DNA of 1,985 nt from Escherichia phage T4, in sequence record AH001329.2. One strand, given 5' to 3'. The notes under the pieces were generated by a model. The model was not told the DNA's origin, made no database searches, and worked only from the letters and a program-made list of their open reading frames with translations. The stretch's first letter is position 1, and every line of letters begins with the position of its first letter. Made by a program: the position numbers and the translations under genes. Below are positions 918-1,914 of this stretch, piece after piece.

Positions 918-1914
918 AACAATACCAAGATTTAATTAAAGACATTTTTGAAAATGGTTATGAAACCGATGATCGTACAGGCACAGGAACAATTGCTCTG
1001 TTCGGATCTAAATTACGCTGGGATTTAACTAAAGGTTTTCCTGCGGTAACAACTAAGAAGCTCGCCTGGAAAGCTTGCATTGCTGAGCTAATATGGTTTT
1101 TATCAGGAAGCACAAATGTCAATGATTTACGATTAATTCAACACGATTCGTTAATCCAAGGCAAAACAGTCTGGGATGAAAATTACGAAAATCAAGCAAA
1201 AGATTTAGGATACCATAGCGGTGAACTTGGTCCAATTTATGGAAAACAGTGGCGTGATTTTGGTGGTGTAGACCAAATTATAGAAGTTATTGATCGTATT
1301 AAAAAACTGCCAAATGATAGGCGTCAAATTGTTTCTGCATGGAATCCAGCTGAACTTAAATATATGGCATTACCGCCTTGTCATATGTTCTATCAGTTTA
1401 ATGTGCGTAATGGCTATTTGGATTTGCAGTGGTATCAACGCTCAGTAGATGTTTTCTTGGGTTAATTGAGGCCTGAGTATAANNNNNNNNNNNNNNNNNN
1501 NNNNNNNNNNNNNNNNNNNNNNNNNNNNNNNNNNNNNNNNNNNNNNNNNNNNNNNNNNNNNNNNNNNNNNNNNNNNNNNNNNGACCTTATCTGAACATAA
1601 TGCTACCGTTTAATATTGCGTCATATGCTACGTTAGTTCATATTGTAGCTAAGATGTGTAATCTTATTCCAGGGGATTTGATATTTTCTGGTGGTAATAC
1701 TCATATCTATATGAATCACGTAGAACAATGTAAAGAAATTTTGAGGCGTGAACCTAAAGAGCTTTGTGAGCTGGTAATAAGTGGTCTACCTTATAAATTC
1801 CGATATCTTTCTACTAAAGAACAATTAAAATATGTTCTTAAACTTAGGCCTAAAGATTTCGTTCTTAACAACTATGTATCACACCCTCCTATTAAAGGAA
1901 AGATGGCGGTGTAA
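914..1914 (+). CDS. td: Thymidylate synthase, split gene: join(914..1462, 1603..1914). Exon 1 gives 183 aa and exon 2 gives 103 aa, for a 286-aa spliced product. The six-frame track shows it as two ORFs (914..1465 and 1600..1914)
   Basis: Exon 1 carries canonical ThyA motifs: [41 protein letters not shown], and the active-site Cys in [11 protein letters not shown]. Exon 1 ends ...[10 protein letters not shown], and exon 2 begins LPFNIASYA.... Together these rebuild the universally conserved ThyA block [14 protein letters not shown], which is contiguous in E. coli ThyA. The exon 1 frame meets TAA at 1463-1465 immediately after the Gly codon, and the exon 2 frame resumes at 1603. The final stop is TAA at 1912-1914. 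Confidence 0.93.
1463..1602 (+). ncRNA. Group I self-splicing intron in td; only about 20 nt at each end is visible, and the interior (1483..1582) is N-masked so the true length is unknown
   Basis: The insertion splits a conserved ThyA motif. The 5' exon ends in U (1462) and the intron ends in G (1602), as expected for group I splice sites. A P1 helix can be drawn between exon 1457-1462 (UUGGGU) and the intron internal guide sequence at 1471-1476 (GCCUGA), with the characteristic U.G wobble at the splice site. The start of a P2-like hairpin (GAGUAUAA, 1475-1482) is visible before the N run. The visible ends match my recollection of the T4 td intron termini (UAAUUGAGGCCUGAGUAUAA ... CUGAACAUAAUG). 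Confidence 0.85.

What the first reader, a model, noticed from the sequence alone, without database searches (positions are those of the whole stretch)
1483..1582. The 100-nt N run hides the intron core and possibly an intron-encoded homing endonuclease
Only about 40 nt of real intron sequence is visible (1463-1482 and 1583-1602). A functional group I core (P3-P9) cannot fit in that, so the N block is a placeholder of unknown true length rather than 100 real bases. In T4 the td intron is about 1 kb and carries the GIY-YIG homing endonuclease I-TevI in a peripheral loop. Anything mobile or novel in this locus would lie in the masked part, and this window cannot show it.
Basis: inference. Interest (0 to 1): 0.55.

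Follow-up and report, generated by a model that had tools for sequence, protein, structure and literature searches.

The report
Masked T4 td intron, already known

Summary
The only non-ACGT stretch is exactly 1483-1582, 100 Ns.

Both flanks (1-1482 and 1583-1985) are 100% identical to the phage T4 reference genome AF158101.6. In that genome they lie 977 nt apart. They lie 976 nt apart in record M12742 and in modern T4 genomes. The N run is therefore a gap of unknown length, not 100 real bases.

The window carries frd.1, frd and the split td gene:
- Exon 1 ends at 1462 and exon 2 starts at 1603.
- The joined exons give a full 286-aa thymidylate synthase.
- Phage T2 has the same gene uninterrupted at that junction.

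The hidden part, intron nt 21-996 of 1016, holds the whole P3-P9 ribozyme core and the 245-aa I-TevI gene. I-TevI has GIY-YIG, zinc-finger and DNA-binding domains, and crystal structures exist.

Natural ORF-less alleles of the same intron pass Rfam's group I threshold. The shortest one sampled is 254 nt, so 140 nt would indeed be too short.

The content is textbook knowledge: already known, low interest.

The parts
22..264 (+). frd.1, 80 aa, DUF5417 protein of unknown function
   Evidence: ORF. Pfam DUF5417, E 1.2e-33. Annotated frd.1 in AF158101.6.
336..917 (+). frd, dihydrofolate reductase, 193 aa. Its stop overlaps the td start in ATGA at 914-917.
   Evidence: ORF. Pfam DHFR_1, E 2e-19. T4 annotation.
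914..1462 (+). td exon 1 (thymidylate synthase codons 1-183)
   Evidence: T4 td is annotated as a two-piece CDS. The spliced product of 286 aa matches Pfam Thymidylat_synt over 1-266 of 266.
1436..1440 (+). CAACG, the I-TevI cleavage motif (CNNNG). The published nick positions, 23 and 25 nt upstream of the insertion site (1462/1463), fall inside it.
   Evidence: Position and distance computed. Motif and 23/25-nt distances are from PMC2988022 and PMC5009752. The role at this exact copy is inferred from the literature, not tested here.
1457..1476 (+). P1 helix. Exon 1 TTGGGT (1457-1462) pairs with the internal guide GCCTGA (1471-1476). This puts a U.G wobble at the 5' splice site, with an 8-nt loop TAATTGAG.
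   Evidence: All six pairs are standard or wobble. The same pairing is chosen by the Rfam Intron_gpI alignment of ORF-less alleles.
1463..1482 (+). Visible 5' end of the td group I intron (intron nt 1-20). It holds the TAA stop that ends the exon 1 frame, the P1 loop and guide sequence, and the 5' strand of P2 (GTATAA).
   Evidence: Identical to T4 intron nt 1-20. Rfam alignment.
1483..1582 (.). 100-N placeholder. It stands for intron nt 21-996 of 1016 (976 nt; 977 in AF158101.6). That stretch holds the rest of P2, the whole P3-P9 catalytic core, and the I-TevI gene (738 nt, 245 aa) looped out within the P6 region of the Rfam model.
1583..1602 (+). Visible 3' end of the intron (last 20 nt), ending in the terminal G at 1602. 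The ATG at 1600-1602 is intron sequence, not a real start codon.
   Evidence: Identical to the T4 intron end. Two-piece td CDS in T4.
1603..1914 (+). td exon 2 (codons 184-286 plus the stop)
   Evidence: Colinear with the intronless td of phage T2.
1935..1985 (+). Start of nrdA.2, which runs off the end of the window
   Evidence: Annotated at L001 5312-5575, mapped to window coordinates using the offsets.

Best explanation
The window is a legacy sequence record of the phage T4 frd.1-frd-td region. It starts at a HindIII site. The middle of the td intron had not been determined, or was not deposited, and is written as a gap of unknown length (100 N).

In T4 the gap holds 976 nt of the 1016-nt td group I intron.

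Splicing (from the literature): the intron RNA folds into the group I ribozyme. P1 is formed by the end of exon 1 and the guide sequence at 1471-1476. The ribozyme splices itself out of the td pre-mRNA by two guanosine-initiated transesterifications and joins 1462 to 1603, which gives a 286-aa thymidylate synthase.

Homing (from the literature): the I-TevI ORF is looped out within the P6 region of the Rfam group I model. I-TevI is a monomeric GIY-YIG homing endonuclease. It binds the fused exon junction of an intronless td allele, as in phage T2. It cuts at CAACG, 23 and 25 nt upstream of the insertion site. Double-strand-break repair from the intron-bearing genome then copies the intron in. 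The intron-bearing allele is spared because the intron splits the binding site.

Shown here: identity with T4, the true gap length, the exon junctions, P1, the terminal G, the core, the endonuclease domains, and the intronless and ORF-less alleles. Taken from the literature: self-splicing, cleavage, homing and autorepression.
For: - N run exactly 1483-1582.
- Flanks are 1482/1482 and 403/403 identical to AF158101.6.
- Flanks are 977 nt apart in AF158101.6 and 976 nt apart in M12742, MT984581 and HM137666.
- The window ends at the same base as the T4 record M12742.
- At two adjacent-base swaps the window and AF158101.6 agree with each other and differ from the two modern T4 genomes compared. 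Nine further T4-type records score the same 99.7%. This marks the window as wild-type T4 sequence sharing the reference record's reading.
- T4 annotation gives td as a two-piece CDS with I-TevI inside the intron.
- The I-TevI ORF has GIY-YIG (E 2e-18), I-TevI zinc-finger (E 1e-20) and I-TevI DNA-binding (E 3e-32) domains. It matches PDB 1mk0, 1ln0, 1i3j and 1t2t.
- Rfam Intron_gpI scores 40.3 bits, E 1.5e-8, on the 3' core of T4. It scores 72.7 and 66.9 bits (threshold 50) on the ORF-less alleles of HMD-9 and PYps55T. The aligned core blocks of those alleles are 95.5-100% identical to T4.
- P1 has a U.G wobble at the splice site, and CAACG lies at the right distance.
- T2 td is uninterrupted at the same junction.
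- Literature: PMC2988022, PMC5009752.
Against: - The accession of the window's own record and its gap annotation could not be retrieved, so 'gap of unknown length in a legacy record' is inferred. The inference rests on the exact length of 100 and the widespread 100-N practice (for example PMC6404602).
- Masking by the scanning pipeline would look the same.
- Rfam finds nothing at its gathering threshold in T4 itself, because the 738-nt ORF splits the core.
Confidence: 0.97

Rival explanations
1. The source is an ORF-less or engineered deletion allele of the td intron. Natural ORF-less alleles exist, and laboratory td deletion constructs lacking the I-TevI ORF exist (own knowledge). The gap would then hide only about 200-400 nt of ribozyme core and no endonuclease.
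For: ORF-less or decayed alleles with the same first and last 20 intron nt exist in nature: HMD-9 254 nt, PYps55T 320 nt, F1 446 nt. The visible 40 nt cannot tell these apart from the full intron.
Against: - The exons of those phages differ from the window. For example, exon 2 starts CTTCCATTTAATATTGCATC in PYps55T.
- The window is 100% T4 over 1885 nt.
- The T4 records examined (AF158101.6, M12742, MT984581, HM137666) all carry the full intron.
- The window spans native frd.1 to nrdA.2 and shares the reference record's reading at two base swaps, as expected for a wild-type genomic record and not a deletion construct.
Confidence: 0.02
2. The gap really is about 100 nt. The insert would then be a 140-nt element that is not a canonical group I intron, and the split-gene reading needs revisiting.
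For: Only the literal length of the N run.
Against: - No record in the phage collection with these flanks shows such an allele.
- The sampled classes are 0 nt (T2 and many others), 254, 320, 446 and 1016/1017 nt.
- The shortest allele that passes the Rfam group I model is 254 nt.
- 140 nt leaves no room for P3-P9.
- Flank identity to T4 is 100%.
Confidence: 0.005

Closest known systems
Phage T4 td group I intron with I-TevI (AF158101.6 143567-144543 for the masked part; M12742)
   Same: It is the same locus. All 1885 visible bases are identical to the T4 reference, including both splice junctions, P1, the terminal G and the I-TevI cleavage motif.
   Different: Only the record differs. 976/977 nt are replaced by 100 N. 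The window and AF158101.6 also read CG and AT at 354-355 and 1006-1007, where the two modern T4 genomes compared read GC and TA.
ORF-less and decayed td intron alleles of T4-like phages (HMD-9, PYps55T, vB_EcoM_F1)
   Same: Same insertion site, the same first and last 20 intron nt, and core blocks 95.5-100% identical to T4. They pass Rfam Intron_gpI.
   Different: The I-TevI ORF is missing or reduced to a 55-aa remnant, giving introns of 254-446 nt. Their exons diverge from T4.
T4-type nrdD (sunY) intron with its GIY-YIG endonuclease, seen here in Mosigvirus KAW3E185
   Same: An intervening sequence in a nucleotide-metabolism gene of a T-even-like phage that carries a GIY-YIG-type endonuclease ORF. 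It has 42 nt identical to td intron nt 43-84.
   Different: Different host gene (nrdD). The endonuclease is different (SegE-like GIY-YIG plus NUMOD1). It has a different homing site.
Bacillus mojavensis thyA intron with I-BmoI
   Same: A GIY-YIG endonuclease in a group I intron, targeting the homologous site of a thymidylate synthase gene. It is described as an isoschizomer of I-TevI (PMC5009752).
   Different: Bacterial host. The cleavage motif is GCCCG, with only G5 critical. Not compared by sequence here.

Membership tests
Group I self-splicing intron (Rfam RF00028) | P1 helix between the end of the 5' exon and an internal guide sequence, with a U.G wobble at the 5' splice site | tested here: met
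   Window 1457-1462 TTGGGT pairs with 1471-1476 GCCTGA: six pairs, and U1462.G1471 is the wobble. The Rfam alignment of the homologues makes the same pairing.
Group I self-splicing intron (Rfam RF00028) | Terminal guanosine as the last intron nucleotide | tested here: met
   G1602 comes directly before exon 2.
Group I self-splicing intron (Rfam RF00028) | Conserved catalytic core P3-P9 recognised by the covariance model | tested here: met
   The window itself cannot be tested: the core is masked and there is no Rfam match. In the T4 sequence that fills the gap, the 3' core gives 40.3 bits, E 1.5e-8. That is below the threshold of 50 because the ORF splits the core. Natural ORF-less alleles whose aligned core blocks are 95.5-100% identical to T4 score 72.7 and 66.9 bits.
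Group I self-splicing intron (Rfam RF00028) | Removal restores an intact host reading frame | tested here: met
   Joining 1462 to 1603 gives 286 aa that cover Pfam Thymidylat_synt 1-266 of 266. T2 td is colinear and has no insert.
Group I self-splicing intron (Rfam RF00028) | Guanosine-dependent self-splicing of the RNA | not testable with these tools
   Established for T4 td in the literature (reviewed in PMC2988022, and PMC3984707).
GIY-YIG homing endonuclease, I-TevI | N-terminal GIY-YIG catalytic domain | tested here: met
   Tested on the T4 ORF that fills the gap (L001 4095-4832): PF01541, E 2.1e-18. It matches PDB 1mk0 and 1ln0 over residues 1-97. It is not visible in the window.
GIY-YIG homing endonuclease, I-TevI | Linker with a zinc finger, plus a C-terminal DNA-binding domain | tested here: met
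   PF22635, E 1.3e-20, and PF20987, E 3.3e-32. Matches PDB 1i3j and 1t2t over residues 130-245.
GIY-YIG homing endonuclease, I-TevI | Homing site in the intronless allele with a CNNNG cleavage motif 23/25 nt upstream of the insertion site | tested here: met
   CAACG at window 1436-1440. The top-strand cut position lies 23 nt from the junction at 1462/1463. The definition comes from PMC2988022 and PMC5009752.
GIY-YIG homing endonuclease, I-TevI | Site-specific cleavage and intron homing in mixed infection | not testable with these tools
   Literature only (PMC2988022). Indirect support here: across phages the intron is 99.4-99.7% identical where the flanking sequences are 92.6-96.2% identical.

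The most novel reading that the evidence does not exclude
The phage stock behind this particular record carried something other than the canonical T4 td intron between the two 20-nt intron ends, for example a different endonuclease gene or a rearranged core, and the gap conceals it.
Probability: 0.01. Interest if true: 0.25.

Novelty: already known. Interest (0 to 1): 0.04.

Why it matters
It matters only as housekeeping. A run of exactly 100 N in a deposited sequence should be read as 'length unknown'. A split gene with such a gap should be resolved against complete genomes before anything is inferred from it.

What is hidden here is the T4 td intron, described as the best characterised group I intron homing system, together with I-TevI (PMC2988022). 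No open question becomes testable.

The survey of relatives does illustrate the known life cycle of a homing element: empty sites, full introns, decayed ORFs and ORF-less introns all occur at one locus.

Tried and rejected
- Rfam at gathering threshold on the window and on the 6.5-kb T4 locus found nothing. This does not argue against a group I intron. The 738-nt ORF splits the core: a permissive scan finds the 3' core, and ORF-less alleles pass the threshold.
- I tried to read the 1984 PNAS paper that first described the td intervening sequence, by PubMed id and by a recalled PMC id. It is not held. That the window is that paper's record stays an inference from my own knowledge.
- The window's own record does not appear in the phage collection, so its feature table could not be checked.
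- I considered whether the scanning pipeline masked the stretch. Either way the same T4 sequence is hidden, so this was not pursued.
- I considered an ORF-less or a truly 100-nt allele. Both were rejected on flank identity to T4 and on the allele lengths seen in relatives.
- No covariation analysis of the core was attempted. The alleles are 90-100% identical and the structure is established experimentally.

Full report
**Observation.** The window holds one run of non-ACGT characters: exactly 100 N at 1483-1582. The sequence on either side reads ...GTTTTCTTGGGT|TAATTGAGGCCTGAGTATAA[N100]GACCTTATCTGAACATAATG|CTACCGTTT...

**Identity of the locus.**
- Window 1-1482 matches phage T4 AF158101.6 (and NC_000866.4) at 1482/1482.
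- Window 1583-1985 matches them at 403/403.
- The annotation there is frd.1, frd (dihydrofolate reductase), td (thymidylate synthase, a two-piece CDS), I-TevI inside the td intron, then nrdA.2.
- Pfam agrees: DUF5417 for 22-264 and DHFR_1 for 336-917.
- The conceptual splice of 914-1462 with 1603-1914 gives a 286-aa protein. It covers the thymidylate synthase model from position 1 to 266 of 266 (E 3.5e-95).
- Phage T2 (AY310907.2) has td as one uninterrupted 861-nt gene. Its exon 1 and exon 2 sequences abut at exactly this junction.

**True length of the gap.**
- In AF158101.6 the two flanks are 977 nt apart.
- In M12742 (a 2162-nt T4 record that ends at the same base as the window) they are 976 nt apart. 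The same holds in the modern T4 genomes MT984581 and HM137666.
- The single difference is one extra T at intron position 93 in AF158101.6.
- The intron is therefore 1016 nt (1017 in the reference), and the window shows only nt 1-20 and the last 20.
- Exactly 100 N is the usual way of writing a gap of unknown length (for example PMC6404602; the GenBank convention is my own knowledge).
- The window starts at a HindIII site. At two adjacent-base swaps it reads like AF158101.6 and unlike the two modern T4 genomes I compared. Nine further T4-type records score the same 99.7% over that stretch.
- I infer that this is a 1980s record of the frd-td fragment, deposited before the intron was fully sequenced. 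I could not retrieve the record or the 1984 paper.

**What the gap hides.**
- The T4 sequence contains the 738-nt I-TevI ORF at intron nt 133-870.
- Its product has a GIY-YIG catalytic domain, the I-TevI zinc finger and the I-TevI DNA-binding domain.
- It is the protein solved in PDB 1mk0, 1ln0, 1i3j and 1t2t.
- It is the only substantial ORF on the coding strand. Its frame stays open back to the codon after the TAA that begins the intron, in frame with exon 1.

**The ribozyme core.**
- At gathering threshold Rfam finds nothing in the window or in the T4 locus.
- A permissive scan finds Intron_gpI on the 3' half of the core at 40.3 bits, E 1.5e-8.
- The shortfall comes from the ORF splitting the core.
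- Natural alleles that lack the ORF score well above the threshold of 50: HMD-9 (254-nt intron) gets 72.7 bits and PYps55T (320 nt) gets 66.9 bits.
- The blocks of those alleles that align to T4 are 95.5-100% identical to it.
- In those alignments the first 20 intron nt supply only the P1 loop, the guide strand and the 5' strand of P2.
- P3 to P9 all fall in what the window masks, and the ORF sits in the P6 region of the model.

**What the window still shows of the mechanism.**
- TTGGGT at 1457-1462 pairs with GCCTGA at 1471-1476. This gives a six-pair P1 with the U.G wobble at the 5' splice site.
- The intron ends in G1602.
- CAACG at 1436-1440 is the I-TevI cleavage motif. Its cut positions lie 23 and 25 nt upstream of the insertion site, as published.
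- Self-splicing, cleavage of intronless td, double-strand-break repair homing, and I-TevI autorepression at an operator over its late promoter are established in the literature (PMC2988022). I did not test them.

**Relatives.**
- 638 phage records match the td region, and 197 carry at least 80% of the T4 gene with its intron.
- 260 records match the masked 977 nt, 197 of them nearly in full, and 172 at 99% identity or more.
- The others sampled have no intron, like T2, PP01 and AR1, where td spans 861 nt. Or they have shortened introns.
- No allele with about 100 nt between the two 20-nt ends was seen in the rows listed.
- In the same phages the intron is much better conserved than the flanking sequences:
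  - PYps10T: 99.7% for the intron against 95.3% for the left flank.
  - HY03: 99.6% against 96.2%.
  - OES_C-3: 99.7% against 92.6% for the right flank.
- This is the expected signature of recent spread by homing.

**Verdict.** The thing itself is the T4 td intron with I-TevI, a model system of long standing. Novelty: already known. Interest is low. Residual uncertainty concerns only why the record has a gap, not what belongs in it.

Noticed in passing
window 354-355 and 1006-1007: The window and AF158101.6 read CG and AT here. The modern T4 genomes MT984581 and HM137666 read GC and TA. Nine other T4-type records score the same 99.7% over this stretch. These adjacent-base swaps change Frd R7 to A and Td S32 to T. 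They look like old gel-reading errors carried into the reference genome, though a strain difference is not excluded.
   Followed up: partly
L001 about 4055 (td intron position 93, inside the masked part): AF158101.6 has one extra T relative to M12742 and two modern T4 genomes, giving a 1017-nt intron instead of 1016 nt. [quoted passage not shown]
   Followed up: partly
L003 881-1134, L004 881-1200, L005 881-1326: The same intron occurs at the same site in decayed forms. HMD-9 has 254 nt and PYps55T has 320 nt, both without the ORF. vB_EcoM_F1 has 446 nt with a 55-aa fusion of the GIY-YIG start and the DNA-binding end of I-TevI. [quoted passage not shown]
   Followed up: partly
L010 1870-2121 (OR584013.1, 'Pseudomonas phage PsgM02F'): A deletion of about 2.05 kb joins frd.1 codon 47 to the last 36 codons of I-TevI at a shared Cys-Asp-Gly. 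It removes frd, td exon 1, the 5' half of the intron and most of I-TevI. Only the 3' intron part and td exon 2 remain. This T4-like genome therefore has no intact frd or td at this locus. Whether this is real or an assembly artefact is unknown, and the Pseudomonas host label is odd for a T4 relative.
   Followed up: partly
L009 934-2490 (MK373782.1, Mosigvirus KAW3E185): An nrdD reading frame stops at 1479. It is followed by 42 nt identical to td intron nt 43-84, and then by a 256-aa ORF with SegE-like GIY-YIG and NUMOD1 domains. The region is unannotated in the record, and Rfam gives no match at gathering threshold. It is probably the nrdD (sunY) type intron, which would then share core sequence with td.
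   Followed up: partly
window 1600-1914: The ATG at 1600-1602 belongs to the intron's last three bases, yet it opens an ORF that runs through exon 2. Many phage records annotate td as two separate 'thymidylate synthase' genes in just this way. This is a recurrent annotation artefact for intron-split genes.
   Followed up: no
window 1463-1482; L001 3966-4832: The intron starts with a TAA stop in the exon 1 frame. The same frame then stays open for 288 codons through I-TevI.
   Followed up: no
(several phages): The td intron is 99.4-99.7% identical between phages whose flanking sequences are only 92.6-96.2% identical to T4. This is consistent with recent horizontal spread by homing.
   Followed up: partly
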